Below are positions 2,727 to 63,466 of a stretch of DNA of 64,000 bases, one piece after another. The first letter of the stretch is position 1. Each line of letters begins with the position of its first letter. The position numbers and the translations under genes were made by a program. This DNA is from Parcubacteria group bacterium Gr01-1014_13 (GTDB lineage Bacteria > Patescibacteriota > Patescibacteriia > Magasanikbacterales > GWA2-37-8). The notes below the pieces were generated by a model. The model worked only from the letters and a program-made list of their open reading frames with translations. It was not told where the DNA came from and did not search any database. Location of the stretch: contig VMGB01000001.1 in NCBI GenBank assembly GCA_007376295.1, positions 413,969-477,968 on the forward strand, given 5' to 3'.

Positions 2727-3266
2727 CTAGTAGCGCGGATACTGCCAGTAGACTCGGGCTGCTTTCGGGATGATGATCTCGCGGTGGATATTTACCGTGT
2801 TACTAGGAAGATCGCTGACGGGAAACCACTTGTGACGATCGTCGATGCGTGGATCGCCAGCTAGCTTGACGATAAAGATGTGCGAGTGGACAGTCCCACG
2901 GTCTTCGGAGGTGATCTCTTTGTCGACCAGATCGAACTTTTCAATCCTGGTACCAAATTCCTCCTCCAATCGATTCGCCACGTCACGATCCTGCTCGCCA
3001 TGACGATAGAGTTTTCCAGGCGCATGCCACTGGCCCGGATAGGCAGTGTCATTCATAGCGCGTTGACGCAGAAAAACCTCATTGCCACCTCTGTCCGAAC
3101 GACGGAACACCATTGCCTCGAAGGCTGGCGTGGGCCACAGACGCATGATAGCATCGCACAAGGCGGTGCCAACGGGCTTGGTAGTATCCAATCGGTTCAG
3201 CATCTGAGCTAGAACCCTTTTATAGTCGTCGCTTGAAGGATCTTCCGGAACCACCGTGTTATTCAT
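2727..3266 (-). CDS. Nudix-fold hydrolase-like protein, divergent Nudix box (paralog 2 of 3)
   Basis: 179 aa; GQWHAPGKLYRHGEQDRDVANRLEEEFG is Nudix-like; its own promoter lies at 3324-3352 on the minus strand. Confidence 0.5.
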   Translation of the reverse strand: MNNTVVPEDPSSDDYKRVLAQMLNRLDTTKPVGTALCDAIMRLWPTPAFEAMVFRRSDRGGNEVFLRQRAMNDTAYPGQWHAPGKLYRHGEQDRDVANRLEEEFGTRIEKFDLVDKEITSEDRGTVHSHIFIVKLAGDPRIDDRHKWFPVSDLPSNTVNIHREIIIPKAARVYWQYPRY

Positions 3267-22759: not shown

Positions 22760-22793
22760 CTTTTTCTTCCTTAAGTTCTTTAAAATATTTTAT

Positions 22794-22867
22794 TGGGCGG
22801 TAGCTCAACCTAGAAAGAGTGCCTCGCTAACACCGAGGAAGTAGAGGTTCAATTCCTTTCCGCTCAA
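22794..22867 (+). tRNA. tRNA-like, anticodon AAC (Val) with atypical D-loop
   Basis: Cloverleaf reads TGGGCGG TA GCTC AACCTAGAAA GAGT G CCTCG CTAACAC CGAGG AAGT AGAGG TTCAATT CCTTT CCGCTCA A. It has a T1-A72 pair, a D-loop lacking G18G19 and an A34 anticodon; all three are unusual for bacteria. Confidence 0.35.
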
Positions 22868-22915
22868 CCCCACTTAGCCGGCGTGTTTCATTAAAGAAAC
22901 CACCGGCTTTTTTAT

Positions 22916-49562: not shown

Positions 49563-52538
49563 TTAGATTTGGCTTTTAGTTGAAATTTGATATTTCTTCT
49601 TTCGTTTTTCAAACGCCCTTTCACCGCCCTCAAGTATATTACATACCTGTTCGATAATGCCGTCCTCAAATTGTTCTACCGGCACGTTAGGAATATGTTT
49701 TGCTTGATCTTCAAGAGAGCCTGAACTGTATTCAAGACGCGGGATGCGCTTGCCGTTGTAATTAGCAACAATAATCTGTTCGGCGTCTGTATTTACCACA
49801 AGATTTGGATTATGCGTAACCATGATAATTTGCCTATACTGCTTTCTGTCACGGAAATAATTAATCAAATCTTTGTAAACAGAAAGGTTGTCCAGATTTT
49901 CTTCTGGTTGGTCAATAATTAACGGCCTGTAGTCGCCCTTATCAATCTCTAAAAAGAGCATGAGCAGAATAATACCTTTTTGACCAGGTGATAGAACGTA
50001 CAAATCCGTATCATCAAATTGAAGGGATGAAACAATTTCAAAATTAGTTGGGTCGAAAAGCCAATTATAGAAATCTTCGATACTATAATTCTCTCTTAGC
50101 TGCTCTTCGATTGAAATATTCTCCCCTTCAAACACCGTAAAACTGCGTAATATTTTAGCAAGCTCAGTTTCAAGTACCGTGTTGCTAAAATTATTACGAG
50201 CACATTCATCCCACATAACAGTGAGCGCTGTTTTAAGACTGCTGGTCTCCCTAAAATTTCCTTTACGTGTACGATCAATAATATCTAGGCCGCTCTTGCA
50301 ATGAGGATCCAGCCGGTAATTTATCTGGGCTTCAAAGACAAGTTTTTTATCCGTGTCTGTACCAGCCAAAAGTGATTCTTGGAGTGGTTTATACAACACT
50401 TCCATCTGCACTTTTTCTTCACGCAACAAACCAAAATACGAGCAATAAAAAACCATTCTTTCCTTTTCCAGTCGTTCCTTATCAGGTGCTGATTCGGTTT
50501 TTATTTTAGCCAATTCATTTTGCAATGCCTTAATTGATCCATCAAGCGCAAGCGCAGTTTTCTTTTGTTGTTGATATTTGATTTTGGTTGTCTCGAATGC
50601 TCTGGTTTCTTTTTGTTTTTCTTCAATTCCTCTGTTCAGTGCTTGAAGATTATCAAACACCAGATCCGTAACGGCTACGGCCAGCAAAGCCGCCACATCA
50701 GCCTTCGCACCGTCTTTTAATGTTTGAAGTTTGGCGGCAATTTCATTTTTATTCTGATCAAGTACGGTTTTAATACCGGCTTCGTCCATGCTCACGTCAA
50801 AAATTGAAGTTTCGGAAATTCCGAGGACCGACAAAAGCGCGCCGATTTCTTCACGGTACTCTTTGACCTGGGTCTTGAACACTTTAACTTTTGTTTCAAC
50901 CTGTCCAATTTTATTTAATCGTGATTGAAGTTCAATTATTTTAGTTTCAAATTTTTTCTTTAATTCAGAGAGAGCCACCAATTCTTCTTGGCCTATTTTA
51001 TCTTCGGCAGGAAGCTCTGGCAAACTGTTATTTAAACGATCAAATTCTCTTTTCTTTTCATCAAGCATTTTTTCTTTTTCCGGCAACCCCGCAAGTACAG
51101 CAGACAGGTTGCTTAGTTTTTGGTTAATGTCGCGAATCTTTTTTATCACCTGTTCCTTTTCATACTGAAAACCGCTCAACACTCGCACTCTCAACTCATC
51201 AAAATCAGATGCACCCATGCGCTCTGTTTCATCCAGAGCTTGAAAAATAACATTTTCTATTTGCTTTTGTAATTTCTCGCTATTTTTGTGTGAGCAAAGA
51301 TCTTCAACAACACCTTGTGGCAAATATCGAACAAGGCCTTGATCCTCTGAAAATTCCCCAACTTTAAATTCGGTGGTGGCGCCGTCGGCCCAAACAATCG
51401 ATATTTTTGTACCTTTGATCGGGTTTTTATGCTTGATAGCTTTCTTCAAGAAAGCACCATCAGTTTCGTCCTCACTACCGGCGCCATAAGCAATCGCTTC
51501 TGCCAAAGCAGATTTTCCAGAGCCGCGACCTCCGATTAGAGTAGCTAAATCACGATTTAATTCAAGCTCAAAGTTTTCCGGAAACCATCCATTAGAAGAA
51601 GGGATAGAAATTCGTGAGATGACTTTGTGGTCAGGTTTATAATTAGGTGGTGTGGCGCCAATAAATACACGAGCTTCTGGCTCATTTAAAACTTGCTTCA
51701 AGCCAGCAAAAGAAGGATCCGCTTTTATCCAAAGCATGGTCTGGCCCACACGATCTATCTCATGAGCATCTGACGAGTGAAGGACTAAGCTATTTAATTT
51801 GTTAGCACTGAGGTCTTTACGATTTTCTTCAATCTTTGCTGGATTGTCTAAATTTGTTAGAGAAAAATTTGCAGAATTGATGAGCGTACGTTTTTCAGCG
51901 GCCGACTGATCCCATCTGGACTGGTCCCATTCCGAATATCCAATTGCCGTAACAAACCGACCCTTAAAACAATTTTTCTCTAGTAATTTCTCAATGTCTG
52001 CGCGTTTATATGTAATATTGTCAAAACCAACCTCGAGATCTGGCTTGCTTTGGATGGTATTACCGGCTGGAGCGGCCGCCTTTATTTGCTTCCCGAGTTC
52101 TTCAAGCGACCGTACCGTTGGTGTTTGTTGCCAAACCGTACCATCCTGAATTTTATAGCCTGTGGACAAACAATTAAGAAGTTGGTCGCGGATATCTTGG
52201 ACTGTAACTGACTCATCAAATATTACATGAAAATTGTGACGTTTGGTGTTATGTGCCGTACCACTAAAAGTGTCCAAACGAAATTCAATGTTTGGAATAA
52301 TTAACTCTATATTAGGTATCTCATTTTTCCGTGTTAGTAAATATTCGTAACCATCACAAAATAAGTAATCAGTTACAGCTATTGCTTTGATCTCTGGTGG
52401 TAATGAAGCAAGCTTCTCAACAAAGCTATTCCATACCGCTTCTGTAGGACCACCGTAACTCTGGATAATTGATTTTGGCGTATGAACGTGCAGGTCCCAT
52501 TTCCTCCACTCTGAGCCGCGCGGATAAAGATGTGTCAT
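49563..52538 (-). CDS. PHP-domain phosphoesterase fused to Rad50/SbcC/SMC-like ABC ATPase with long coiled-coil insert (candidate defence or DNA-processing nuclease-ATPase)
   Basis: 991 aa. The N-terminus has WDLHVHTPKS plus the downstream LHSSDAHEIDRVG (PHP HxH...H...DxH metal site). Walker A GGRGSGKSALAEAI lies at ~aa 335. A ~450-aa heptad-rich region follows. The C-terminus has Walker B/D-loop PLIIDQPEENLDN and H-loop MVTHNPN. Confidence 0.65.
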   Translation of the reverse strand: MTHLYPRGSEWRKWDLHVHTPKSIIQSYGGPTEAVWNSFVEKLASLPPEIKAIAVTDYLFCDGYEYLLTRKNEIPNIELIIPNIEFRLDTFSGTAHNTKRHNFHVIFDESVTVQDIRDQLLNCLSTGYKIQDGTVWQQTPTVRSLEELGKQIKAAAPAGNTIQSKPDLEVGFDNITYKRADIEKLLEKNCFKGRFVTAIGYSEWDQSRWDQSAAEKRTLINSANFSLTNLDNPAKIEENRKDLSANKLNSLVLHSSDAHEIDRVGQTMLWIKADPSFAGLKQVLNEPEARVFIGATPPNYKPDHKVISRISIPSSNGWFPENFELELNRDLATLIGGRGSGKSALAEAIAYGAGSEDETDGAFLKKAIKHKNPIKGTKISIVWADGATTEFKVGEFSEDQGLVRYLPQGVVEDLCSHKNSEKLQKQIENVIFQALDETERMGASDFDELRVRVLSGFQYEKEQVIKKIRDINQKLSNLSAVLAGLPEKEKMLDEKKREFDRLNNSLPELPAEDKIGQEELVALSELKKKFETKIIELQSRLNKIGQVETKVKVFKTQVKEYREEIGALLSVLGISETSIFDVSMDEAGIKTVLDQNKNEIAAKLQTLKDGAKADVAALLAVAVTDLVFDNLQALNRGIEEKQKETRAFETTKIKYQQQKKTALALDGSIKALQNELAKIKTESAPDKERLEKERMVFYCSYFGLLREEKVQMEVLYKPLQESLLAGTDTDKKLVFEAQINYRLDPHCKSGLDIIDRTRKGNFRETSSLKTALTVMWDECARNNFSNTVLETELAKILRSFTVFEGENISIEEQLRENYSIEDFYNWLFDPTNFEIVSSLQFDDTDLYVLSPGQKGIILLMLFLEIDKGDYRPLIIDQPEENLDNLSVYKDLINYFRDRKQYRQIIMVTHNPNLVVNTDAEQIIVANYNGKRIPRLEYSSGSLEDQAKHIPNVPVEQFEDGIIEQVCNILEGGERAFEKRKKKYQISTKSQI

Positions 52539-52799: not shown

Positions 52800-53294
52800 A
52801 TGAACGATCATCTAATTAACGGCTTTGAACACAATTTGATTAAGGGCAAGATAGCCGAAACTATTTTTGAATTAATGTTCCAAGAATCTAAAAAGTTTTC
52901 TGTATTTCACTTTGGCTATGAGTACACCGCCGAATACCTAGCACAATATAATTTAGCATTACCAAAGGAGGTGCTTAGCAATATCCGCCACTCACCTGAT
53001 TTTATTATCGTCACAGAAAATAAAAAGGGTGCTTATTTAGTTGAGGTTAAATACAGAACGCACATTGATAACCAAGAAATGATAGATACAGCTAGACGAC
53101 TTAAGGAACGATGGAACCCATCATATATTTTTGTTATATCTAACGACGGCTTTTATTTTACTCCGGCTAATACCATTATTAACAAAGGTAAGATGGAAAA
53201 ATTAGACAGAAAATGGATCAATAGCGGGCTTCAAACCAAATACTTTAAACTGGTAGAAGATTATCTCTGCCACCACAAGGACAAAAATCTATAA
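52800..53294 (+). CDS. small PD-(D/E)xK nuclease-fold protein (restriction-endonuclease-like), hypothetical
   Basis: 164 aa; motif order E(...IAETIFE)...PDFIIV...AYLVEVKYR fits the D-x(n)-(D/E)xK catalytic core. Confidence 0.4.
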   Translation: MNDHLINGFEHNLIKGKIAETIFELMFQESKKFSVFHFGYEYTAEYLAQYNLALPKEVLSNIRHSPDFIIVTENKKGAYLVEVKYRTHIDNQEMIDTARRLKERWNPSYIFVISNDGFYFTPANTIINKGKMEKLDRKWINSGLQTKYFKLVEDYLCHHKDKNL

Positions 53295-53309
53295 CCAACC
53301 TTCATACCA

Positions 53310-54362
53310 TTGACTCCTTACCTATTTTACCCATATAGTAGTGGCTCTATGGACAAAATAGATCTCAAAAAATATTACATTGAGGAGCATATATTTGAGA
53401 GTTTTTCAGAAAACTCTAGTTTTTTAATTAGCCTTGCCATCTCTCTTTTAAGCGACCGGCTTACAGACCTAGCTTCTTCGGGTTATAAGAAAGGAGAAAA
53501 ATATATACATGATTATAGAAAAGAATTCATACCTGACATGGTTTTTGGAGAACCCTCGCCCACTGATTATCATTTTATAATAATTTTAGATAGAAAATTA
53601 CCTTTAAAAATTAAAGATAACGGAAAAACAAAACTTGCTTTAATGCGGTTACTGAATAACCCTGATTTTATATTAGATATAAATTGGGATCACAGTCGTC
53701 TGGTACGTTTAAAACAAGCTGCAAACGAACCCAAAACAAAAAAACAGATTGATTGGATTCTTAATGAGTTTGTTTATTGTGACGATATCCCCCAATTGCA
53801 AAAAGATGTACAAAAACATTTAAAACGCAACGAGTTGCCAATGATAGATTATATTTTAGAAATAATGGTAATCCAACCAATGATCCAGGAATTATCTAAA
53901 AAATATAAAATACCTACAGAACAAAAACACTTTTTAGAAAGCATTATAGAATACGGAATTGATCATGTCATACAAAATGTATCAAATATAAAAACCGGCT
54001 CATTATCCTATCTTGATTTTTACGGTGGAGTCGTATATTTGCTTAAACCCCACGACGAACGAATCGCTCCACAAATAAAATCGGTTTGGGCCAGCGAAAC
54101 AAACGGGCAACATCTCAAACGCACCGAATCCATTGTTAAATACTTTCAAAAAAAATATCTTCCAATAACCCCATCAACGCCAGCGAATGACACAGATTTA
54201 GATAAGCATTTTTTATTATTTAAACTTGATCGAAATTCAAAATTTAACGATGAAAAAAAGGCGCGGATTATTTTTAATATTCCTGACAATAAACCCTGTG
54301 GAAAAGCTCAGACCAACAAAATTGCCTCAATGAGGCGTAATTTGAAACCCTACTTAAAATAA
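53310..54362 (+). CDS. hypothetical protein
   Basis: 350 aa, AT-rich codon usage, no recognisable motif; same operon as the flanking genes. Confidence 0.4.
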   Translation: MTPYLFYPYSSGSMDKIDLKKYYIEEHIFESFSENSSFLISLAISLLSDRLTDLASSGYKKGEKYIHDYRKEFIPDMVFGEPSPTDYHFIIILDRKLPLKIKDNGKTKLALMRLLNNPDFILDINWDHSRLVRLKQAANEPKTKKQIDWILNEFVYCDDIPQLQKDVQKHLKRNELPMIDYILEIMVIQPMIQELSKKYKIPTEQKHFLESIIEYGIDHVIQNVSNIKTGSLSYLDFYGGVVYLLKPHDERIAPQIKSVWASETNGQHLKRTESIVKYFQKKYLPITPSTPANDTDLDKHFLLFKLDRNSKFNDEKKARIIFNIPDNKPCGKAQTNKIASMRRNLKPYLK

Positions 54363-54467
54363 ATGATATAAAGTAATTTTTTGTATCATACTTTTGGCTT
54401 TACAGAGCCATTTTTTTATTTAAAACTGCATATGTAGCTACACAGTTTAATTATTAACTTAAATTTT

Positions 54468-54824
54468 ATGCCCAACGACAAGTTGGAGAATTACGGCCTT
54501 AACATTAAAGATATCGAGGTCAAAACAAAAATCATTGAGAACCAGTCTCTCAAAGCAATTATCGGTTTAAATTTCGGCCCTTTTACAGTAAAGGGATTCA
54601 GAATTAGTAAATCAAAATACGTACCGGATAGCGGGGAAAAAACTAAAAATGGAGAATTATGGATCGTCCCTCCATCGTACAAGGACAGTGGCGGCAGATA
54701 CCACCCGACCTTCTTCATACCACATAAAGAGCTCTGGCAAGAACTCAAAGATCATATCATGACAGAATATGAAAAAGCGGTGGATGCACACTACAGAAAA
54801 CGACTTAATATGCCCGAATTCTAA
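54468..54824 (+). CDS. SpoVG-like nucleic-acid-binding protein
   Basis: 118 aa; aligns with SpoVG (I.D(I/V)..k....lkAi....f.v.g.r...........ELW(I/F)V(P/A)PS...(D/S)G....P.F...(K/R)....I...I..EY) by recollection of B. subtilis SpoVG. Confidence 0.4.
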   Translation: MPNDKLENYGLNIKDIEVKTKIIENQSLKAIIGLNFGPFTVKGFRISKSKYVPDSGEKTKNGELWIVPPSYKDSGGRYHPTFFIPHKELWQELKDHIMTEYEKAVDAHYRKRLNMPEF

Positions 54825-54829
54825 AACTT

Positions 54830-54960
54830 ATAGCTCTACATAGTTAATTATATATAGTTAACAATATATAATAACTTAATTTAATTAATAATATTACATT
54901 ATAGTTGTTCTATTAAGTAAAAGTTGACTATATGGGGCTCTATTATTCTATTCGGTTCAA
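54830..54960. repeat. extremely AT-rich region with inverted repeats (TAGTTAAttatatataGTTAACA) upstream of the recombinase gene; candidate recombination (att-like) site
   Basis: ~90% A+T over 130 bp; a 7-bp inverted repeat is centred at ~54856; the position is analogous to attP placement next to serine integrase genes. Confidence 0.3.
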
Positions 54961-55243
54961 CCATTATCCTCGCCCTGTGGCGGCATCTGTGATGCCGTCC
55001 ATGGGCGGATATAATATTGCACTTAACTTTACTATTACATTATTTGGTTCGTTTCTATGTTGGAAAACAATAAAGGACAATCTGTTTTTTCCAATGAGGT
55101 GATCGTAAACTTCACTGTCTTTTATAATAGTCTCCTCACGGTTAGAAATAGATTGCTTAGGGAAGGATACAGCATAGAGAATGGTAAAATTTTTAAGCCC
55201 GCTGGAAATTTTGATAAGATATGTTATACTCCTGATAAGTATG

Positions 55244-56950
55244 ACCAAAACCAACCAAGGTAATACCTACCTAATCTACGCTCGTAAGAGTACGGATGAT
55301 TCTGAAAATCAAAAAAATTCTATAGACTACCAAGTGGGTGAATGTTTGAGATACTCAAAAACTAATAATCTTGTAATATCTGATTACTCCTTTGAAGGAT
55401 TAAGTAACAACGGTGTAATTAAAGAAAAACATACCGCATATAAAACTTCCGATATCTCCATCAATAAAGATGGTTCTTTTGTGTACCACATTGAACGCCC
55501 AAAATTTAAACAGCTCGTAGACAGTCTAATGAAAAAAGAATTTAAAGGTGTTATCTGTTTGTGTTGGGATCGTATAAGCCGTAATGACCAAGACGGTATT
55601 ATAATTAAAAACCTAATCAAAAATGGCATTGACGTTCGATTTGTCCAAACAAAATATGAAAAGACTAGCTCCGGAGCTTTACACATGGATATAGATGGCA
55701 TGTTCGCGGCACACTACTCTAGAGTAATAAGCGAGAAAGTAAAAGCTGCTTATTCAAAACTTCAAAGCGAGGGAAAATGTACTTACATAGCTCCGATTGG
55801 TTATTTAGATAAGGGTTCAGATAACAAGCCACTGGATTTAGACAGGGCACATATTGTAAAACAAATATTTGAAATGTACTCCGAGGGTGGTTGGAGTTTA
55901 AATCAATTGGCGAAATGGGCAAACCAACAAGGACTAACAACTAAGCCTTCTCGTAGTAAAAGAACTTCTCAAGAAGTAATGTCTGGCGAAGAAAACAATA
56001 AACCAAAGGTCGGTCGTCCTCTCAATGACAAAAGTGTTGAGCTTATTCTTAAAAATCCATTCTACATAGGCAAACTTAAAATTGGCGGCCAAATTATTGA
56101 CGGTATTCATCAGCCCTTAATCAATGTCGGTTTATTTAACAAGGTACAAGAAGTTTTGAAAAGCCGAAATGTAAAGGTCTATTACGTAGATAAAGAATTT
56201 TACACTTTTAGAGGACTGATAACTTGCGATTGTGGCAGATCTTATTCCCCGTACAGAAAGAAAGGTATTGTGTATTATCGTTGTCGTTGTAAAACTGACT
56301 GCACCAGTACCGATACAAACCTCAATGAAAGCGAAATTAATAGGGTTATAAACGATTTGATGGGTCAGATACACTTCAACGACCAAGAGCTCGCCGAAAT
56401 TGAATCTAGGGCAAAATTTGGGCTTCAAGAAGTATCAGATCGTAGAAACACAGAGATGGAAACGTTGAACAAACAAAGACAACGTCTTTTTGATGATTTG
56501 GACTATCTGCAAAACAATAAAATCACACTACTTCGGACAAATGTTTATTCCATGGAGAAAATTAACGACGAAATAAACAGTCTTGAAAGGAGATTAGACG
56601 AAATTGAGGAAAAAATGAAGGCTTACAAAGAAGCGGCCATCGATATGCTGAAGTATGTGCTATCTTTTTCCGAACTTGTAAAAGAGGCTAAGCTATACTA
56701 CGAACACGCACTTGATACTGAAAAAAGGGATATTACCTTATCTGTGTTTTCCGAACTGACTTTCCACAATGGAAGCTTATCTAAATTTAAAGCAAAAGAA
56801 GGCTTTGAAGCCCTCTTTAAAAGACACGACACGATATCTGGCTCCCGGGGTCGGATTCGAACCGACGACCAATTGGTTAACAGCCAACTGCGCTACCGCT
56901 GCGCTACCCGGGAATTTACGACACTAGTATATTTAAAATTTTCGCTTTAG
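55244..56950 (+). CDS. large serine recombinase (resolvase/invertase N-terminal catalytic domain + recombinase domain + zinc ribbon + coiled coil)
   Basis: Catalytic motif YLIYARKSTDDSENQ (Ser nucleophile); zinc ribbon CDCGRSYSPYRKKGIVYYRCRC; C-terminal coiled coil. The track ORF begins at 55181; Met at 55244 is the likelier start. The last ~38 codons are antisense to tRNA-Asn, so the true C-terminus is uncertain. Confidence 0.7.
   Translation, partial: TKTNQGNTYLIYARKSTDDSENQKNSIDYQVGECLRYSKTNNLVISDYSFEGLSNNGVIKEKHTAYKTSDISINKDGSFVYHIERPKFKQLVDSLMKKEFKGVICLCWDRISRNDQDGIIIKNLIKNGIDVRFVQTKYEKTSSGALHMDIDGMFAAHYSRVISEKVKAAYSKLQSEGKCTYIAPIGYLDKGSDNKPLDLDRAHIVKQIFEMYSEGGWSLNQLAKWANQQGLTTKPSRSKRTSQEVMSGEENNKPKVGRPLNDKSVELILKNPFYIGKLKIGGQIIDGIHQPLINVGLFNKVQEVLKSRNVKVYYVDKEFYTFRGLITCDCGRSYSPYRKKGIVYYRCRCKTDCTSTDTNLNESEINRVINDLMGQIHFNDQELAEIESRAKFGLQEVSDRRNTEMETLNKQRQRLFDDLDYLQNNKITLLRTNVYSMEKINDEINSLERRLDEIEEKMKAYKEAAIDMLKYVLSFSELVKEAKLYYEHALDTEKRDITLSVFSELTFHNGSLSKFKAKEGFEALFKRHDTISGSRGRIRTDDQLVNSQLRYRCATREFTTLVYLKFSL
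56838..56912 (-). tRNA. tRNA-Asn (anticodon GTT), CCA encoded
   Basis: The reverse complement reads TCCCGGG TA GCGC AGCGGTA GCGC A GTTGG CTGTTAA CCAAT TGGTC GTCGG TTCGAAT CCGAC CCCGGGA G CCA. Confidence 0.8.
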
Positions 56951-57010
56951 TCAAGATACTAACCTCAATTAAAATCCCCTGTATCCTCAAATGAGAACAC
57001 AAGGGATAAG

Positions 57011-58549
57011 CTATTTACACCGTTCTACATTCCAAATGTTGGCCTTTTCGCATTCGCGCTTCGATTTTAGCGCCTGCTGTCGGGCTTTTTCTCTGTTTAT
57101 TTCCAAATACAGCATGGCTACGCGTTGTAGAGCATCTTTGTCCAGCTTGTAGCGCCTAGCTATGAATCTTGCAACTTCCGCTTTTCTAGCTTGCAGAGCC
57201 GAATCAAAAGCCAGCCGAATACCCCAATTTTTAAAATCAGCGCGCGTATCGCTGTGGGCAATGTCTGCGGCCAGGTCAAAAGCCCCGCGGCGAAGAGCGT
57301 GCAGAAAGGCCCGTTCATTCCAGGCAATTATGTACGTATCGCTAAGACCATCTTTGTGTTGGACCAAGAAAGAGGTGACGGACCATTCTTCGTTGGCATC
57401 CAAAATTTTATTCAAGATACCATCACGATAGTCTTGAACTCTTTCTCCGCCCCACGGCTCAATGTTTAACACCTCGGCATAGTCTTGAGCTGCCAAACCC
57501 TCGGTTACCAATTTATCAAAATGATTTTTTCCCAAAGAAAGTTTTTCAATCGCGCGGCGAGCTAACACAAACTCCTGCGCTTTCAGGCTTAAATTAAAAA
57601 ACCATTCAGCCTTTGACTGAGGAATAAATACCGGGTCAACTTGCCCCAAAGTACCGCCAAGACACTTGGGATTCAAAAAGATCGCCTCTACCGTTTTATC
57701 TGACAACTTCTGTTTTATTGCCACTATCGCCGCCATGCCGCATTCATACTGCGTCACGGCTAGAGAGATAAAATTTTCATAATCCGCGGGAGTTTTCTTG
57801 AAACCGTCTTTCTCCAGAATTGCTTTGGCAAATGAAAACTTTTTGTCATTTAGGCCAATAGCAAATAAATCCGCATACTGCCCTGTCGTAAGCGGACACA
57901 TGTCCGCAATTTTTCCCATTGGCTCATACTCGTCGACAAAGACGGCCTTCCAGTAGGAATGATACTCACGCAATTCAGGACGTATCTGTTTGAAATTTTC
58001 AACCCAGCCATTTATCAATTTGCTTTGCAACTCTTTTGTGCCGGGCCTTTTGCAAGCCAAGCGCGCCACTTGGACATAATCAGCGCTGGTTGAAGCTACG
58101 GCACAGTTAATGGCTTTGTCCGCGTAAACTGCTCCCAGACTAAAATGATAAACCACATCGGCGGCGGTTTCGCAAAAATCATTTTTGGTTAAAAAAGCAA
58201 AAACTTCTTGAGCGAATGCCTCTTCGGTAGCGCGGTCGAGCTTGAACACTTTTGAAATGTCTTTGGCCTCGCCCACGCCCACCTCTCTGGTTAGGATCAC
58301 TTTTTGCCACATAGTCGCAGTGACGGCAGCAATGACTACGCGGCGATCCACTTTCTTTTTATCGGCAATCGCCTTGGCCTTGGCATAATGGTCGACTTTA
58401 GAGTCGGCAGCAAGTTCTCGATCTTCGAAAGTGAGTTCTTTGTAGAACTCCTGATAATTGGCTTCAGCTTCGGCAGCCGTTAAGACACGCCTTTGCGGCG
58501 AAAGAGATGCGCAAGAACACCATAACATCACGAACATTGCATGACGCAT
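57011..58549 (-). CDS. secreted hypothetical protein, high-GC gene
   Basis: 512 aa; N-terminal signal peptide (MFVMLWCSCASLS); no recognisable motif; GC content is visibly higher than the rest of the window. Confidence 0.45.
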   Translation of the reverse strand: MRHAMFVMLWCSCASLSPQRRVLTAAEAEANYQEFYKELTFEDRELAADSKVDHYAKAKAIADKKKVDRRVVIAAVTATMWQKVILTREVGVGEAKDISKVFKLDRATEEAFAQEVFAFLTKNDFCETAADVVYHFSLGAVYADKAINCAVASTSADYVQVARLACKRPGTKELQSKLINGWVENFKQIRPELREYHSYWKAVFVDEYEPMGKIADMCPLTTGQYADLFAIGLNDKKFSFAKAILEKDGFKKTPADYENFISLAVTQYECGMAAIVAIKQKLSDKTVEAIFLNPKCLGGTLGQVDPVFIPQSKAEWFFNLSLKAQEFVLARRAIEKLSLGKNHFDKLVTEGLAAQDYAEVLNIEPWGGERVQDYRDGILNKILDANEEWSVTSFLVQHKDGLSDTYIIAWNERAFLHALRRGAFDLAADIAHSDTRADFKNWGIRLAFDSALQARKAEVARFIARRYKLDKDALQRVAMLYLEINREKARQQALKSKRECEKANIWNVERCK

Positions 58550-58622: not shown

Positions 58623-60797
58623 CTAGGCGGTTTCTCTACCCAATATACTATCGAGTTCATTACTGATAGATGCATAATCAAACTCATAACCTAAGACATC
58701 ATAACTCTCCTCTTTGCTTTCATTAGCAATTTTGAATTTACCGATTTTAAAGACCCCATCTTTTTCCACTACTACCACATTCGATTTTACCTTGCCATTT
58801 TCTACAACAAACAGACCGCGCAAAGGTCCTATTTGCTGTTTTACTGTCTCCTCCCCTTGTTTTTTTAATAAAAGATTTAGTTTTCTTTCCGCCTTTTCTA
58901 TATCTTTGGCAATAGCTACTCCGGCTTCAGCTCGTTTTAACGCTTGTAAATGAGACTCAACTAATTCCTGCTGATCGCTTTCTAGGGAGACGCTTTTTTC
59001 GGATTTTGCCACCACGGTTTTAATAACGCGAGTATTGGTTTTTTCTTTTAAGGCGAACAAAAAATCATCCAATTTTTCTTCACTCATGTTGCTGGTATCT
59101 ATAGCTAGAGCCAACTCATCGCCACCGACTTCGCCGGTAATTAAACCGTCTTTAAAACCAAATTTTTTACAAACTTGCGCCACTTTTTTTCTAAAATCCC
59201 GTAATTTTTCCGTAGTCAAATCCCCGGCAGACAATGCCAGTTCATTAAATTTATCCATTTTTTTCTTACCACTAACCTTGTCTACATCCTGTAAAATATT
59301 TTCGTATTCCAAAAGCTGATCTACTCCCAAATCCAAAACATCCAAACTTACATAGGCGCATTCTGACATAGCCACAGCTCTTTTGTTAAACTCGCTTTTT
59401 GAAGTATAGGCGCGGTCTTTTTCTTCGGAACGCAACATATCGGCCGCCAACTCTACTTCCCGATTCTCGAGGACTTCTCCTTTTTTAATCTTCTCAGATA
59501 AACTACGTGCTATGTTAATGTTGTCTTCGACTTGAGAAATCTCTTTCAGCGTAAACGGCTTTACCGTGTCTAAAATATTCAACTTTTTGACATAAAACGC
59601 GATATCCGCCAAATTATTTTTGTCTTCGGTTTTAAATTCGCCTTTGCGCACATCTCTGAGCACGTCTGGATTAAGGAAAAACTTTTCTCCTTTCTTGATA
59701 AAAATTTCAAATTCATTTCCTTCATTATCTGTTATCTTATTACCGTGCTCGCTAATTATTTTTTCTCGTAATTCTTTTATATTTCCCAGCTCAGCCTCAA
59801 TACTTTCTTCATTGTACTCCGCGCCATAATTATCCGGATTCTGCCTAGCCATCCTGCTTGTCTGCTGTGAATGATTTAGGCTTTCCAACTTGTCTTCCAT
59901 TTTGTCTCCGCCAACTTCCGATAGGCCGTAATTCATTTTAAACCCGCCCTTACCATTAGTTTTCTCGGATTTACCCTGCAAATCATTTTTAAATTCCTCT
60001 AAAATTTTAATTTTATCTTTATCTGTTACTTCTTCAACCATCAAGTCGTCAACTATTTTTTCTATAAATACGGTCATTTCTTTATCTATGGCCAAAGACA
60101 CCTCTTCTAATTTACCGGTATCAATACTGGAATCTTTGGAAATTTTTACTACTTCGATTTTATAATCGCTTTGTAGGATAGACGCATTTGTGTCTATTTT
60201 TTTTATCTCTCTTTCAATGACCCGGCGTTTCTCCGCAATTATTTTATTGGTAACTTGCGGACCGAGAATAACATCATTTAAATTTTTAATTGATAAAAAA
60301 TCAGCGCCCGGCACCAAAAAACTTAAAACTTTATCCCCTTTTTTTAATCCGGTAAATATTTTTCCCCAATTTTGGCGTTCCAAAACACCGGCCAATTGCT
60401 GGCGATTGAACTCTTGGCCTGTTTCCATTTTTTCTACTTCTTGGGCCAACTCAACATCTCTTTCGGCGCGACCGACAGTGTCAGGACTAATTTCTGTTTC
60501 TTTATCAACTTCTCCCTTATATAATCTTTCGATGGCTGCTTTAAACCGCTCCAAATCTTTGATATTTTCCGGATTCTTTTTCAACTCCTCGACAATTATA
60601 TTGTTTATTTCTTCTAACGCAGATTTAAAATCAAGTCCGCTCAGGTCTAACTTGCCTAATATTTCCTGCATATAGGCCGGGGTTTCACTTAATTTTATTA
60701 GGTTTTCAAAACTTGGCCCGGCCTGAGCTTCGGCTTGCTTCTCTTGAGATTTTTGATTTTCTGCAGGCTCCTGGCTGATTTCTTGATCGGTGTTCAC
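58623..60797 (-). CDS. large acidic hypothetical protein with C-terminal degenerate GGDEF-like (palm) nucleotide-cyclase domain
   Basis: 724 aa; residues ~490-600 contain AYVSLDVLDLGVDQL (DxD metal site of GGDEF/palm domains) and ITGEVGGDELALAID (GG(D/E)EF-like). The N-terminal 480 aa is coiled-coil and E/K-rich. Confidence 0.4.
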   Translation of the reverse strand: MNTDQEISQEPAENQKSQEKQAEAQAGPSFENLIKLSETPAYMQEILGKLDLSGLDFKSALEEINNIIVEELKKNPENIKDLERFKAAIERLYKGEVDKETEISPDTVGRAERDVELAQEVEKMETGQEFNRQQLAGVLERQNWGKIFTGLKKGDKVLSFLVPGADFLSIKNLNDVILGPQVTNKIIAEKRRVIEREIKKIDTNASILQSDYKIEVVKISKDSSIDTGKLEEVSLAIDKEMTVFIEKIVDDLMVEEVTDKDKIKILEEFKNDLQGKSEKTNGKGGFKMNYGLSEVGGDKMEDKLESLNHSQQTSRMARQNPDNYGAEYNEESIEAELGNIKELREKIISEHGNKITDNEGNEFEIFIKKGEKFFLNPDVLRDVRKGEFKTEDKNNLADIAFYVKKLNILDTVKPFTLKEISQVEDNINIARSLSEKIKKGEVLENREVELAADMLRSEEKDRAYTSKSEFNKRAVAMSECAYVSLDVLDLGVDQLLEYENILQDVDKVSGKKKMDKFNELALSAGDLTTEKLRDFRKKVAQVCKKFGFKDGLITGEVGGDELALAIDTSNMSEEKLDDFLFALKEKTNTRVIKTVVAKSEKSVSLESDQQELVESHLQALKRAEAGVAIAKDIEKAERKLNLLLKKQGEETVKQQIGPLRGLFVVENGKVKSNVVVVEKDGVFKIGKFKIANESKEESYDVLGYEFDYASISNELDSILGRETA

Positions 60798-60807
60798 ATT
60801 ATTATAT

Positions 60808-61134
60808 TTAAACTGAATTTATCTTAGATAAAATAATTTCCATCTTTTTATGATCTTCGTCGTTTAATTTTTGTTTATACAAACTTATTATTTCTTCATC
60901 TGATTTTTTTCTGGCGCGGATAATTTTATTATAAAAATCGTGATCTTCTTTAATTTTTTTATCCAAAATTTTTCCTTGCCATTTATTAACTTCAGATAAA
61001 ATTATTTTTAATTTTTTTAATCCGGCAGCGTCTAAATTTTCTGCTTTCGCCAAAATCTCTTCCTTAAATTTTATTTCAAAAACAAGGATATTTTCCAGTA
61101 AATTGTTAATTTCTTTTAAATCATCAACTGACAT
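60808..61134 (-). CDS. small coiled-coil hypothetical protein
   Basis: 108 aa, K/E-rich; lies 10 nt downstream of the GGDEF-like gene on the same strand. Confidence 0.35.
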   Translation of the reverse strand: MSVDDLKEINNLLENILVFEIKFKEEILAKAENLDAAGLKKLKIILSEVNKWQGKILDKKIKEDHDFYNKIIRARKKSDEEIISLYKQKLNDEDHKKMEIILSKINSV

Positions 61135-61137
61135 ATT

Positions 61138-62466
61138 TTACATTAACTGGTAACTCTTGGTTGGGTTTTTTATATGATTAAAGACTACTTCTTTAATATT
61201 AGATACGCCGAATTGCCGGCCATCTAAAAATCCTGACATGGCCGCTTCGGCTAACCAGCCGCTGTCCAGCCAATCAAATAGCCATTCATGGGTATATTTC
61301 GGATTATTTTGAGAAATACCAGCACCAATGGTTTTTAACCAAGTACGGTTATAAACTTCTTGGGCGCCCAGCGATGGGGCGGTGATAAGCGGAACACCTA
61401 AAGCTGTGTAGAAAACCAATTCACTGGGTTTAGTCCAAAGCACATCGGTGGTTCGCAAAGCTTCATTGAACTGGCGGAAATAGTCTTCTTTTTCCAGGGC
61501 AAAAATAATTTTAATGTTTTTGCCTAATAAATTTTTTAGACCGCACTCTTTAATTTTTTCTTGAAAATATAAATAAACATCATTGCGCGAACCGGCCACT
61601 AAATTTAAATGCAGATCTCCTTGCAAAAGACGTTTTTTTAGACCGACCAAAATATCATGGGCCATTGTTTTTTGGGCGCCAGCTCCACCGACGGCAAAGG
61701 TAATAGTAAGTGGGTGGGTTCCGTGTGTTTTATTGCTATCTGTTTTCAAAAACCGAGCTACAGTGTCGGCATACTTTTGTCTATATCTTTTCAGAGGATC
61801 AAGATTGTGAATTCTGCCCAATAAATCAGCTTTCAAAACATGCAGATCAGAACTACCCAAATTTTCTTCTGGCAAAGGAAACCCTGTGAGAAAAATATTT
61901 TTTTCTTTTACGCCATAAAGCTTTAATCTGTCCACTACCCGCCGGCAAGGCGCCAAATATTTTATCCGGCTTTTTTGAGGATTAATCGGGACCCAAGTGC
62001 GGCTAATATCGGCATCGCACAAAACCAGATAAATATCGTTTTTAAATTTATGCTCTTCGGCCATAAAAGCCGTAACAAAAAAGGTAGTGATAAGGGGGAT
62101 GTCTTTCGTATTGAGATACTTTATCAAATCTTCTCCCCAACCTTTTTTCATGAACGAATACATTTGCTTGAGTTGCAAATTTGGAGCTGACAAATCCCGG
62201 CGCGGATAAAAATCTTTTATGCTCTGTAATTTGTCGTACAGATTAAACAAAAATTGGCCAATCAAAGGAACGCTAATAAGCCGGGAAACAAACCCATAAA
62301 AAACTTCTGAATCATGCCAAATTCGATAATCTTTTTGAGGAATACCTTGATAGTTATTAGCGCTAATTACTTTACCTGTAGGAGAAAGATGACGCAAAGG
62401 ATAAGCTGCGCGCTGGTGGCCATATCCCATATCCACGGCCACTATCCAAGCTTGTTTCTCGGTCAT
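61138..62466 (-). CDS. GT28/MGDG-synthase-like glycosyltransferase (UgtP/MurG-related)
   Basis: 442 aa; N-terminal VDMGYGHQRAAYPL (the G-loop of MGDG synthase/UgtP) and a C-terminal GT-B motif GVPLITAPSLGAQEVYNRTWL. Confidence 0.5.
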   Translation of the reverse strand: MTEKQAWIVAVDMGYGHQRAAYPLRHLSPTGKVISANNYQGIPQKDYRIWHDSEVFYGFVSRLISVPLIGQFLFNLYDKLQSIKDFYPRRDLSAPNLQLKQMYSFMKKGWGEDLIKYLNTKDIPLITTFFVTAFMAEEHKFKNDIYLVLCDADISRTWVPINPQKSRIKYLAPCRRVVDRLKLYGVKEKNIFLTGFPLPEENLGSSDLHVLKADLLGRIHNLDPLKRYRQKYADTVARFLKTDSNKTHGTHPLTITFAVGGAGAQKTMAHDILVGLKKRLLQGDLHLNLVAGSRNDVYLYFQEKIKECGLKNLLGKNIKIIFALEKEDYFRQFNEALRTTDVLWTKPSELVFYTALGVPLITAPSLGAQEVYNRTWLKTIGAGISQNNPKYTHEWLFDWLDSGWLAEAAMSGFLDGRQFGVSNIKEVVFNHIKNPTKSYQLM

Positions 62467-62481
62467 AATTTATTAACCCCC

Positions 62482-63192
62482 TTAAAATTTAGATCTTTTG
62501 TTGTTTGCCCAAATAAAACCCATGGTCTTATCAAAATGAGACGGAAACACTTGTACGCCAAAACCGTTGGCTCTTAATTTTTCTTCCAATTCTTCTTTGC
62601 TTTTTTCTCTACTTATATGATACTCCAAAATTACATAATTTACCATCGCAAAATCATCAGCAGACATGCCATTAAACAGTTCGTATTCCCCTCCTTCAAT
62701 ATCCATTTTTAATAAAGAAATCTTTTTAAGCTTATTCTGCTTGCAAAAATCGGCAAAAGAAAAAGTTTGAACAGTAATTGTTTTTTCTGTCCTATCTTCA
62801 TCCCTGAAACTTGGTCCGGCCAAGTAATGATTGTGGCTATCTGCGGATAAAATTAATTGCCTTTCTTCAGTTTGTGAAGCTATTGCGCCGGAAACAACTT
62901 TTATTCCTAAAATTTTATTTTCAGCCAAATGCTGCTTGAATAAATTTAAATTATCCGGTTCCGGCTCAATAGCATAGATTTTTACTTTTTTATTCAACGA
63001 CCGGCAGTACATGCTGAAAAATCCGGCATGCGCGCCTACGTCTATTATAGGGTGCTTAGCATTTTTGATAACATCGTCGGCCGACCGATATTCTTTTAAT
63101 TTAAAAATTTCGTTATATACGCTCTGATCCGCCTCGTCGCGCAGATAAACATGCCAATCGTACCCGTTTAATTTTAAATTTATCTTCTGCAT
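62482..63192 (-). CDS. FkbM-family SAM-dependent methyltransferase
   Basis: 236 aa; IIDVGAHAGFFS (SAM-binding Gly loop) and the MDIEGGEYEL motif characteristic of FkbM. Confidence 0.7.
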   Translation of the reverse strand: MQKINLKLNGYDWHVYLRDEADQSVYNEIFKLKEYRSADDVIKNAKHPIIDVGAHAGFFSMYCRSLNKKVKIYAIEPEPDNLNLFKQHLAENKILGIKVVSGAIASQTEERQLILSADSHNHYLAGPSFRDEDRTEKTITVQTFSFADFCKQNKLKKISLLKMDIEGGEYELFNGMSADDFAMVNYVILEYHISREKSKEELEEKLRANGFGVQVFPSHFDKTMGFIWANNKRSKF

Positions 63193-63424: not shown

Positions 63425-63436
63425 ACAAAAAAATTA

Positions 63437-63466
63437 GATCGGGCCGCAGTTGTGGCCCGATCTTTT
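63437..63466. terminator. bidirectional terminator GATCGGGCCGCAgttgTGGCCCGATC flanked by A- and T-runs
   Basis: Perfect 11-bp stem with a T-run on both strands; sits 3' of both the small RNA (plus strand) and the ClpP-like gene (minus strand). Confidence 0.6.

What the first reader, a model, noticed from the sequence alone, without database searches (positions are those of the whole stretch)
58623..60797. 724-aa protein with a degenerate GGDEF-like palm domain
Residues ~495-575 carry SLDVLDLGVDQL and GEVGGDELALAID, which match the two metal- and nucleotide-binding elements of GGDEF/palm-domain cyclases (DxD...GG(D/E)EF) at the right spacing. The preceding 480 aa are an acidic coiled-coil region. 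Its location in the island, next to a small coiled-coil ORF, raises the possibility of a nucleotide-second-messenger signalling component of the CBASS, mCpol or GGDEF-effector kind, or an inactive scaffold.
Basis: inference. Interest (0 to 1): 0.55.

Follow-up and report, generated by a model that had tools for sequence, protein, structure and literature searches.

The report
Uncharacterised enzyme with two GGDEF-like domains
This 724-residue protein of a Parcubacteria/Magasanikbacteria genome belongs to an undescribed family with two cyclase-type (GGDEF/Cas10-like) palm domains, only the second of which keeps a complete, strictly conserved active site, and the same module also forms the C-terminal cargo domain of giant injection-system (eCIS) proteins in myxobacteria.

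Summary
The ORF (58623-60797, minus strand, 724 aa) and both motifs are real: SLDVLDLGVDQL is residues 484-495 and GEVGGDELALAID is residues 555-567.

The palm-domain idea holds, on predicted structure rather than sequence. Every top Foldseek hit of a confident AlphaFold model is Cas10, a GGDEF cyclase or a tandem adenylyl cyclase. Pfam, NCBIfam, PADLOC and hhalign give nothing significant.

The rest of the reading needs correcting:
- The motif domain ("Palm2", about 478-650) is not degenerate. D486, GGDE558-561 and K631 are 97-99% conserved in 138 homologues.
- The "acidic coiled coil" hides a second palm domain ("Palm1", about 150-330). Modelled alone, it hits GGDEF domains at probability 1.00. 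It has lost the catalytic residues but keeps a K/N/D helix.
- The gene is not on the island. It lies in a five-gene operon (FkbM methyltransferase, DUF6938 glycosyltransferase-like protein, 108-aa protein, this gene, 512-aa protein) that is syntenic across Magasanikbacteria. No sensor or effector gene of a defence system is nearby.
- The same roughly 550-aa module ends giant eCIS_core (DUF4157) proteins. One of these sits in a Vitiosangium eCIS locus.

Most likely it is a single-active-site, NTP-using nucleotidyltransferase or cyclase. Its product is unknown.

The parts
58623..60797 (-). Whole ORF, 724 aa, GTG start. Member of an unnamed family (141 representative clusters at 50% identity).
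60408..60797 (-). Residues 1-130: acidic, helical, poorly conserved N-terminal region. Absent from the eCIS-type modules.
59808..60350 (-). Palm1, residues 150-330: GGDEF-fold domain without catalytic residues. P163 stands where the metal-binding Asp would be, and 'SDYK' 210-213 where GGDEF would be. It keeps K171, N174 and D175.
   Evidence: Model of residues 138-330 has pLDDT 93.7. Foldseek against PDB: GGDEF domains at E 5.5e-4, prob 1.00, TM 0.5-0.6, then class III cyclases. hhalign register. Conservation.
60273..60308 (-). Palm1 motif GADFLSIKNLND (residues 164-175). It aligns with PleD '[10 protein letters not shown]'. K171 and N174 are 98-99% conserved.
59367..59807 (-). Linker domain, residues 331-477: small beta-sheet plus helices, with conserved R381, R384, K385, Y402, N407, D410, K413, S466 and F470. 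It has no cysteine, so no Cas10-type zinc finger.
58848..59366 (-). Palm2, residues 478-650: catalytic-type palm domain with order beta1, three helices, beta2-beta3 hairpin, helix, beta4, long helix.
   Evidence: Secondary-structure order in the model. Full-length Foldseek hits to Cas10, GGDEF and sAC. Weak per-member Pfam hits to GGDEF, GGDEF_2, Cas10-Cmr2_palm2 and GCH_III.
59313..59348 (-). SLDVLDLGVDQL (residues 484-495), at the end of strand beta1. D486 is the putative metal ligand and aligns with PleD D327.
59097..59135 (-). GEVGGDELALAID (residues 555-567), the beta2-beta3 hairpin. GGDE558-561 aligns with PleD GGEEF368-372.
58905..58940 (-). LKRAEAGVAIAK (residues 620-631), which aligns with PleD 'LKRADEGVYQAK'. 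K631 (0.99 conserved) aligns with PleD K442.
58626..58847 (-). Residues 651-724: small beta-rich C-terminal domain, variable, with low confidence at 690-703. Not part of the eCIS-type module.
60808..61134 (-). 108-aa all-helical protein, 10 nt upstream. It is found immediately upstream of the homologue in the closer relatives (L001-L003, L005, L008-L014; several of these loci are the same genomes fetched twice) and in L015, L016 and L022. It belongs to no known family.
61138..62466 (-). DUF6938 protein (GT-B type, MGDG-synthase-like). Same operon. It is 66-81% identical across loci in which the palm protein is 38-58% identical.
62482..63192 (-). FkbM-family methyltransferase, first gene of the operon.
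57011..58549 (-). 512-aa protein of no known family, last gene of the operon. Its only detected homologue (39% identity) is at the same position in one other genome.
56974..57007 (-). Terminator-like hairpin (15-bp stem) closing the operon, just before tRNA-Asn at 56839-56913.

Best explanation
The protein is a fused, asymmetric pair of GGDEF/Cas10-type palm domains.

Shown (by prediction and comparative analysis):
- Palm2 (residues 478-650) has the cyclase-type palm fold.
- It carries an Asp at the end of strand beta1 (D486) and a GGDE hairpin (558-561).
- It also has a GD at the start of the helix before the hairpin (G525-D526) and a Lys in the following helix (K631).
- All of these are nearly invariant, both in Patescibacteria and in the distant eCIS-fused copies.
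- Palm1 (150-330) has the same fold. It has lost the metal ligand and the hairpin motif but keeps an invariant K171/N174 helix in the position of the GGDEF 'FKxxND' helix.

Inferred:
- Palm2 binds a Mg2+-NTP and catalyses attack of a 3'-OH on its alpha-phosphate.
- Palm1, together with the basic, conserved linker residues (R381, R384, K385), holds the second (acceptor) nucleotide.
- One polypeptide would then do what a GGDEF homodimer or the two palms of Cas10 do, but with a single catalytic centre.
- The expected product is a linear or cyclic di- or oligonucleotide, or a cNMP if the acceptor OH belongs to the same NTP.

Biological role (inferred): in Magasanikbacteria it is a chromosomal, vertically inherited cytoplasmic enzyme expressed from an envelope or lipid-related operon. 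In myxobacteria and deltaproteobacteria the same module is delivered as an eCIS cargo domain, where making the nucleotide, or consuming NTPs, in the target cell would be the toxic act.
For: - Full-length AlphaFold model: pLDDT 82.9, pTM 0.79.
- All 50 best PDB matches are palm-domain nucleotide cyclases. Cmr2/Cas10 matches at E 5.7e-4 over about 650 columns. Type III-D Cas10, Csm1 and the tandem-domain soluble adenylyl cyclase also match. GGDEF domains match at prob 1.00 with TM 0.5-0.6.
- BFVD gives phage GGDEF proteins first.
- Palm1 modelled alone (pLDDT 93.7) hits GGDEF domains at E 5.5e-4, prob 1.00, then class III cyclases.
- Conservation over 138 modules: D486 .99, G491 .98, GGDE .97-.99, K631 .99, E634 .97, H616 .96, K171 .98, N174 .99, R384 .99, N407 .98, D410 .99. 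These residues are also invariant in the eight aligned eCIS-type modules.
- Relaxed hhalign places D486, G525-D526, GGDE and K631 opposite PleD D327, G343-D344, GGEEF and K442, collinearly.
- The only families hit by more than one Palm2 member are GGDEF and GGDEF_2; single members also hit Cas10-Cmr2_palm2 and GCH_III, among many unrelated single-member hits.
- eCIS link: PF13699 eCIS_core at the N-terminus and this module at the C-terminus in P0139, P0141, P0144, P0148, P0150, P0158, P0174 and P0176. P0144 lies among Pvc16_N, AAA and other eCIS_core genes. DUF4157 N-terminus with a toxin C-terminus is the published architecture of eCIS toxins (PMC8213781).
Against: - No sequence method reaches significance. 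There is no Pfam hit at E<=1 for the whole protein. A profile search of PDB sequences finds nothing relevant. hhalign against GGDEF profiles gives probability 2-8% and P 0.005-0.02, and one relaxed run mis-registers the GGDE hairpin.
- Palm2 was never modelled or searched on its own, so its fold assignment rests on the full-length model and its secondary-structure order.
- Global TM-scores to Cas10 and sAC are low (0.15-0.25). The relative arrangement of the two palms is therefore not shown to match either.
- Palm2 lacks equivalents of PleD N335 and R366, and the D-to-GGDE spacing is 31 residues longer than in PleD.
- No biochemical data exist for any member.
- Toxicity of the eCIS-fused copies is inferred from architecture only.
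- Synteny with the glycosyltransferase is limited to relatives of about 38% identity or more.
Confidence: 0.6

Rival explanations
1. It is an ordinary, merely divergent, diguanylate cyclase that makes c-di-GMP for housekeeping signalling.
For: GGDEF domains are the best structural matches at domain level. The GG(D/E)E hairpin, the beta1 Asp, the GD that aligns with PleD G343-D344 and the 'LKRAExGxxxAK' helix are collinear with PleD.
Against: PF00990 is not matched (best single member E 0.012). Only one of the two palm domains can be catalytic, whereas c-di-GMP synthesis needs two active half-sites. Palm2 lacks the Asn335 and Arg366 equivalents and the RxxD I-site. There is no fused sensor domain of the usual kinds. 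An eCIS cargo role is not a diguanylate cyclase habit.
Confidence: 0.07
2. It is the signal synthase of an anti-phage system (mCpol/Panoptes-like, Cas10-like or CBASS-like).
For: It has Cas10-like two-palm architecture, and Cas10 proteins are the top full-length structural hits. A genuine mobile or defence island lies 2-9 kb away, with a serine recombinase and a TrlF/Ppl-like ATPase.
Against: The gene is separated from that island by tRNA-Asn and a terminator. It sits in an operon syntenic across many Magasanikbacteria genomes. There are no PADLOC hits. There is no CARF, SAVED or effector neighbour, and no tandem or CRISPR-like repeat array in the window. There is no Cas10 zinc finger, since the protein has only two Cys. 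CD-NTases have a different fold.
Confidence: 0.07
3. It is a catalytically silent scaffold or nucleotide receptor, like PelD or other degenerate GGDEF proteins.
For: Palm1 is clearly degenerate yet conserved. Neighbouring glycosyltransferase-like and PLD-like genes recall c-di-GMP-receptor control of polysaccharide synthesis.
Against: The acidic residues needed for metal binding (D486, D560, E561) and K631 are 98-99% conserved down to about 22-25% overall identity. That is the pattern of an active site, not of a receptor. Use as a terminal eCIS cargo domain implies an activity.
Confidence: 0.1
4. It is a palm-domain enzyme of another kind. It could be a template-independent polymerase or primase-like enzyme, or a nucleotidyltransferase acting on RNA, DNA or protein rather than a small-molecule cyclase.
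For: The palm fold is shared with polymerases, and weaker BFVD matches include RdRps and reverse transcriptases. The linker has a conserved basic patch, R381/R384/K385. A nucleic-acid-modifying activity would also be a plausible toxin.
Against: The significant matches are all to cyclase-type palms (Cas10, GGDEF, class III cyclases), not polymerases. No fingers or thumb-like elements were identified. The GGDEF-type accessory motifs (GD helix, KRAExG..AK helix) are present.
Confidence: 0.13
5. It is not a palm domain at all. On this view the motif is a coincidence and the AlphaFold/Foldseek similarity reflects a generic ferredoxin-like beta-alpha-beta-beta-alpha-beta fold.
For: Sequence-profile tests are insignificant. 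Foldseek E-values are modest (5e-4 to 1e-1) and rmsd values are large.
Against: All 50 top PDB hits for both models belong to one superfamily. The invariant residues fall exactly on the catalytic positions of that superfamily: the end of beta1 and the beta2-beta3 hairpin.
Confidence: 0.03

Closest known systems
GGDEF diguanylate cyclases (PF00990; e.g. PleD, PDB 1w25)
   Same: Both domains have the GGDEF-type palm fold by Foldseek. Palm2 has the beta1 Asp, the GG(D/E)E hairpin, a GD helix and a 'LKRA(D/E)xGxxxAK' helix in PleD order. Palm1 keeps the 'xKxxND' helix.
   Different: It is not detectable by the Pfam model. Two domains are fused in one chain and only one has catalytic residues. An extra helix of about 30 residues lies between beta1 and the hairpin. 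There is no RxxD I-site, and Palm2 has no Asn335 or Arg366 equivalents. There are no sensor domains. The genomic and eCIS contexts are different.
Cas10 (Cmr2/Csm1), the large subunit of type III CRISPR-Cas
   Same: Cas10 proteins are the best full-length structural matches. The order is the same: degenerate Palm1, intervening domain, catalytic Palm2 with a GGD(D/E) hairpin, then a helical C-terminal part. Both have a single catalytic centre using two nucleotide sites.
   Different: There is no HD domain and no zinc-finger D2 domain (two Cys only). There are no Csm/Cmr partners and no repeat array in the window. Global TM is only 0.16-0.25. Pfam Cas10-Cmr2_palm2 is hit by only one of 28 members, at E 0.002.
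Tandem class III nucleotidyl cyclases (mammalian soluble adenylyl cyclase; C1-C2 pseudo-heterodimers)
   Same: Two cyclase-type palm domains lie in one chain, with catalytic Asp residues on only one of them. sAC entries align over about 500 columns. Class III cyclases match Palm1.
   Different: TM is low (0.14-0.18). The catalytic domain is second here, not first. The accessory motifs look like GGDEF rather than class III (no Asn-Arg pair was identified).
eCIS-associated toxins with an N-terminal DUF4157/eCIS_core domain (Geller et al. 2021, PMC8213781)
   Same: Distant members of this family occupy the C-terminal 'toxin' position of giant eCIS_core proteins, one of them inside an eCIS gene cluster.
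   Different: The window protein has no eCIS_core domain and no eCIS genes nearby. No cyclase, GGDEF or palm toxin domain is mentioned in the eCIS or polymorphic-toxin surveys that were searched.
mCpol (minimal CRISPR polymerase) / Panoptes
   Same: It is a Cas10-related palm enzyme used outside CRISPR (from my own knowledge and the title and abstract of PMC12657230).
   Different: mCpol is a small single-palm protein partnered with a nucleotide-sensing effector. Here there are two palms, about 550 aa of core module and no such partner. No direct comparison could be run.

Membership tests
GGDEF domain (PF00990) diguanylate cyclase | Match to the Pfam GGDEF model, or a significant profile-profile match | tested here: not met
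   No hit at E<=1 for the whole protein. Best single-member E 0.012 for Palm2 and 0.1 for Palm1. hhalign probability 2-8%.
GGDEF domain (PF00990) diguanylate cyclase | Palm fold with GG(D/E)EF on the beta2-beta3 hairpin and a metal-binding Asp at the end of beta1 | tested here: met
   In the predicted model D486 ends strand 479-487, and GGDE 558-561 lies between strands 555-557 and 561-567. Foldseek matches GGDEF domains at prob 1.00. Residues are 97-99% conserved. This rests on a predicted structure only.
GGDEF domain (PF00990) diguanylate cyclase | Guanine-binding Asn335/Asp344 pair and Arg366 in the catalytic domain (PleD numbering); RxxD I-site | tested here: not met
   D526 aligns with D344. 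No Asn335 equivalent is present (Q494, not conserved), E556 stands in place of R366, and there is no RxxD upstream of GGDE. The K/N/D helix survives only in the non-catalytic Palm1.
GGDEF domain (PF00990) diguanylate cyclase | Synthesis of c-di-GMP from two GTP by a dimer of two active domains | not testable with these tools
   Needs an enzyme assay. The sequence shows only one catalytic half-site per chain.
Cas10 (type III CRISPR large subunit) | Two palm domains in one chain, with the GGDD-type catalytic hairpin in the second | tested here: met
Cas10 (type III CRISPR large subunit) | Zinc-finger (treble-clef) domain between the palms | tested here: not met
   The protein has only C480 and C543, and none in residues 331-477.
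Cas10 (type III CRISPR large subunit) | Encoded with Csm/Cmr subunits and a CRISPR array | tested here: not met
   The neighbours are FkbM, DUF6938, a 108-aa protein and a 512-aa protein. No tandem repeats occur in the 64-kb window. The same non-CRISPR neighbours recur in other genomes. Not every ORF of the window was scanned for cas genes.
CBASS CD-NTase | Pol-beta-type nucleotidyltransferase fold; operon with an effector and Cap genes | tested here: not met
   No PADLOC hit for this protein or its operon partners. Structural matches are to cyclase-type palms, not pol-beta NTases.
mCpol | Small single-palm Cas10-like protein next to a nucleotide-sensing effector | tested here: not met
   It has two palms in 724 aa. 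Its neighbours have no recognisable sensor or effector domain. No direct profile comparison with mCpol was possible.
Class III nucleotidyl cyclase | Head-to-tail (pseudo)dimer of cyclase domains with the active site at the interface; Asn-Arg transition-state pair on the partner domain | tested here: inconclusive
   sAC and class III cyclases are among the structural hits.
eCIS-associated toxin domain | C-terminal domain of a protein with N-terminal eCIS_core/DUF4157, encoded in an eCIS cluster | tested here: met
   This is met for distant family members only, not for the window protein itself, which has neither feature.
eCIS-associated toxin domain | Toxicity on expression in target cells | not testable with these tools
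   Needs expression assays.

The most novel reading that the evidence does not exclude
The family is a new class of nucleotide-synthesising enzyme: a fused, one-active-site GGDEF/Cas10-like pseudo-dimer that makes a product not yet known from bacteria. That chemistry would be used in two ways. One is as an injected eCIS toxin in myxobacteria, which would be the first palm-domain nucleotide-synthase cargo of a contractile injection system. The other is as a conserved endogenous signal or metabolic enzyme tied to envelope or lipid genes in ultra-small Magasanikbacteria.
Probability: 0.3. Interest if true: 0.8.

Novelty: new variant of a known kind. Interest (0 to 1): 0.62.

Why it matters
Cyclase-type palm enzymes (GGDEF, Cas10, mCpol, class III cyclases) make most known bacterial nucleotide messengers. 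This family has Cas10-like two-palm architecture but no CRISPR context. No Pfam, NCBIfam or PADLOC model matches it. None of the eCIS and polymorphic-toxin surveys I searched mentions a cyclase, GGDEF or palm domain.

If active, it would add a new synthase, and probably a new product, to that repertoire. It would also give eCIS research a candidate cargo with a defined, mutable active site. And it would assign a testable function to one of the conserved 'hypothetical' proteins of Patescibacteria, whose signalling is almost unknown.

The finding also shows that a strictly conserved four-residue motif can flag a domain that profile methods miss.

Tried and rejected
1. Direct family assignment failed. 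Pfam at E<=1, NCBIfam, PADLOC and phmmer against PDB gave nothing relevant for the whole protein.

2. A profile of Palm2 against PDB sequences returned only alpha-catenin and dynein noise.

3. hhalign of Palm2 and Palm1 was run against a 2-sequence GGDEF alignment and a 119-sequence one. The local matches were in the expected places, but probabilities were 1-8%. With the larger (low-diversity, PleD-only) profile, the relaxed Palm2 alignment lost the GGDE register. The database search used to build that profile returned only close PleD orthologues and was poor value.

4. hhalign of Palm1 against Palm2 showed no detectable internal repeat at sequence level.

6. A profile search with the eCIS-type modules found only 3 proteins because of the word index.

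7. I looked for an att-type direct repeat of the tRNA-Asn end to delimit the neighbouring island and found none.

8. The idea that the 512-aa downstream protein is a conserved partner was rejected. It was detected at the same position in only one other genome, which was fetched twice as L003 and L014.

9. The 'island' and defence-system reading was rejected on synteny and on the lack of partners.
Full report
**1. The observation**

- The window holds an ORF at 58623..60797 on the minus strand, 724 aa, with a GTG start.
- It is 100% identical to 'hypothetical protein G01um101413_487' of Parcubacteria group bacterium Gr01-1014_13.
- SLDVLDLGVDQL is residues 484-495 and GEVGGDELALAID is residues 555-567.
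- A loose version of the motif pair turns up in 0.9% of composition-preserving shuffles. By itself the motif is only a hint.
- The description of the rest of the protein is wrong. Only residues 1-130 are acidic, helical and poorly conserved. Residues 150-650 are a well-conserved, confidently modelled alpha/beta region.

**2. Homologues and conservation**

- The word-indexed search found 48 proteins of 600-1095 aa. All are unnamed and without Pfam domains, and they come from Magasanikbacteria-type Patescibacteria.
- The exhaustive search of 1.84 billion cluster representatives found 141 clusters (77 at E<=1e-30). Some hold the module (query residues about 110-650) inside proteins of 1000-4138 aa.
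- In a 39-sequence alignment Y482, S484, D486, V487, D489, G491, V492, G525, T529, G558, G559, D560, E561, H616, K631, E634 and R638 are invariant.
- Over 138 modules aligned to the family HMM, D486, G559, D560 and K631 are 99% conserved, and G558 and E561 97-98%.
- An upstream block, 'GDxVLSFLVPGADFLSIKxLNDxxFGPQxTNxII', is equally conserved at K171 (98%) and N174 (99%).

**3. Fold**

- No sequence method assigns a family.
- AlphaFold2 with the 39-sequence alignment gives pLDDT 82.9 and pTM 0.79.
- Foldseek against the PDB returns only palm-domain nucleotide cyclases in the top 50:
  - Cmr2/Cas10 at E 5.7e-4, prob 0.97, about 650 aligned columns.
  - Type III-D Cas10 and Csm1.
  - A class III cyclase-like protein and human soluble adenylyl cyclase (tandem domains, about 500 columns).
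  - Many GGDEF domains at prob 1.00 with target-normalised TM 0.5-0.6.
- BFVD puts phage GGDEF proteins first.
- In the model, residues 479-647 run beta1 (ending at D486), three helices, the beta2-beta3 hairpin (GGDE at 558-561), a helix, beta4 and a long helix. That is the cyclase palm order.
- Residues 156-317 show the same order. I modelled 138-330 alone (pLDDT 93.7, pTM 0.88). It hits GGDEF domains at E 5.5e-4, prob 1.00, TM 0.5-0.6, and then class III cyclases.
- The protein therefore has two palm domains.

**4. Which domain is degenerate**

- hhalign against PleD aligns Palm1 'GDxVxxFLVP...SIKNLNDxxFGPQxTDxII' with '[31 protein letters not shown]'. I checked the PleD sequence against PDB 1w25.
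- This puts P163 on the metal-binding D327, K171 on K332 and N174 on N335 (best P = 0.0046). The hairpin there reads SDYK.
- For Palm2, relaxed hhalign gives a collinear 135-column alignment. D486 falls on D327, G525-D526 on G343-D344, GGDE on GGEEF, and 'LKRAEAGVAIAK' on 'LKRADEGVYQAK' (K631 on K442).
- These alignments are not statistically significant (probability 2-8%), and one run mis-registers. I use them only for register, not as proof of homology.
- Among Palm2 segments scanned singly, GGDEF and GGDEF_2 are the only Pfam families hit by more than one member (2 each). Cas10-Cmr2_palm2 (E 0.0022) and GCH_III (E 0.0032) are each hit by one member, alongside many unrelated one-member hits of similar strength.
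- Conclusion: Palm2 looks catalytically competent. Palm1 is the degenerate one but keeps a conserved helix that binds the base in GGDEF enzymes.
- Differences from canonical GGDEF:
  - D-to-GGDE spacing is 72 residues against 41.
  - There is no Asn335, Arg366 or RxxD equivalent in Palm2.
- Difference from Cas10: only two cysteines, hence no zinc finger.

**5. Genomic context**

- The gene is the fourth of five tightly spaced minus-strand genes: FkbM methyltransferase, DUF6938 (GT-B type, MGDG-synthase-like), a 108-aa helical protein, this gene, and a 512-aa protein. The gaps are 15, 3, 10 and 73 nt.
- Terminator-like hairpins bracket the five genes at 63436-63463 and 57007-56974.
- tRNA-Asn (56839-56913), a serine recombinase, a low-GC stretch (52-56 kb, GC 0.33-0.36) and a TrlF/Ppl-like ATPase lie beyond the terminator. 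That is the island, and this gene is outside it.
- FkbM-DUF6938-(108 aa)-palm recurs, usually downstream of FtsE/FtsX, in relatives of about 40% identity or more. In L004 and L018 (38%) FkbM or DUF6938 lies a few kb upstream rather than adjacent.
- The 108-aa gene also precedes the homologue in L015, L016 and L022.
- More distant loci have other neighbours. In four of them a PLD-type (PLDc_2) gene overlaps or closely follows the 3' end.
- DUF6938 is 66-81% identical where the palm protein is 38-58% identical, so the palm protein evolves faster.
- No neighbour has a sensor or effector domain of a nucleotide-signalling defence system. The window has no repeat array.

**6. The eCIS connection**

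- Eight large representatives carry Pfam eCIS_core (PF13699, formerly DUF4157) at the N-terminus: P0139, P0141, P0144, P0148, P0150, P0158, P0174 and P0176.
- They carry this module at or near the C-terminus. P0141 also has an ADP-ribosyltransferase domain.
- P0144 is WP_108074819.1 of Vitiosangium sp.. It lies next to Pvc16_N, an AAA ATPase and two more eCIS_core genes.
- The published rule is DUF4157 at the N-terminus and a toxin at the C-terminus, often after a linker of more than 1000 aa (PMC8213781).
- The catalytic residues and the Palm1 K/N are invariant in these copies.
- None of the eCIS and polymorphic-toxin surveys I searched mentions a cyclase, GGDEF or palm domain.

**7. Mechanism**

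- Shown: two palm folds (predicted); one complete and one incomplete catalytic set; conservation; the two genomic settings.
- Inferred: Palm2 binds Mg2+-NTP through D486, D560 and E561, with K631 on the phosphates. Palm1 and the basic linker residues present the acceptor nucleotide. One phosphodiester bond forms per cycle, giving a linear or cyclic di- or oligonucleotide, or a cNMP.
- I put 0.6 on 'active NTP-using palm enzyme with one catalytic centre', and much less on any particular product.
- Rivals considered: canonical diguanylate cyclase (0.07), defence signal synthase (0.07), silent scaffold or receptor (0.10), another palm chemistry on nucleic acid or protein (0.13), and not a palm at all (0.03).

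**8. Novelty and verdict**

- The fold and chemistry class are known.
- The family, its fused asymmetric architecture outside CRISPR, and its dual use are not described in the libraries or papers I could search. The dual use is as a conserved Patescibacteria protein and as eCIS cargo.
- I rate it a new variant of a known kind, with interest 0.62.
'Degenerate', 'coiled-coil N-terminus', 'island' and 'CBASS/mCpol-type' are not supported.

Noticed in passing
window 49563-52538 (-): A 991-aa protein matches the NCBIfam TrlF-family AAA-like ATPase model (E 8e-170) and the anti-phage Ppl models of PADLOC and NCBIfam. It has a PHP-like N-terminus. It is probably a defence gene on or next to the integrated element.
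   Followed up: partly
window 52800-56950: This low-GC stretch (0.33-0.36) holds three ORFs of no known family and a large serine recombinase (55181-56950, +). The 3' end of the recombinase ORF overlaps tRNA-Asn (56839-56913, -) in antisense. It looks like an element integrated at the tRNA, but no att-type direct repeat was found.
   Followed up: partly
window 57011-58549 (-): The 512-aa last gene of the operon lies in a region of higher GC (0.445 at 57-59 kb) than its surroundings and has no Pfam, NCBIfam or PADLOC match. Its only detected homologue (39% identity) sits at the same position after the palm gene in one other genome (L003/L014).
   Followed up: partly
window 61138-62466 (-); loci L001-L020: The DUF6938 glycosyltransferase-like protein is unusually conserved. 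It is 66-81% identical across genomes in which the adjacent palm protein is only 38-58% identical. It gives weak hits to MGDG and diglucosyl-diacylglycerol synthases.
   Followed up: partly
L022:4902-6014, L023:6702-7811, L026:7845-8954, L027:7863-8969: In four distant loci a roughly 369-aa gene overlaps or closely follows the end of the palm gene. The L022 and L023 copies were scanned and are two-HKD PLD-type proteins (PLDc_2, cardiolipin-synthase-like). The L026 and L027 copies are assumed to be the same from their size and position. Together with the MGDG-synthase-like neighbour elsewhere, this hints at a link to membrane-lipid head-group enzymes.
   Followed up: partly
P0039 (1095 aa; homologue): This family member has a C-terminal extension of about 390 aa. 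Its sequence looks protein-kinase-like by eye ('DISPANL', 'PxYLPGE', 'WQFG'). Pfam found nothing at E<=0.001.
   Followed up: no
P0141 (4138 aa): This eCIS_core protein carries both an ADP-ribosyltransferase domain (residues about 2932-3089) and the two-palm module (about 3507-3930), so it has two putative toxin domains in one cargo protein.
   Followed up: no
P0155 (3196 aa) and P0177 (2352 aa): These giant proteins contain the module but have no eCIS_core domain. P0177 has a methyltransferase-like region. Their context and delivery route are unknown.
   Followed up: no
window 22793-22870 (+): ARAGORN calls a 78-nt tRNA-Val with anticodon AAC, which is unusual for bacteria. It could be a real oddity or a false call.
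   Followed up: no
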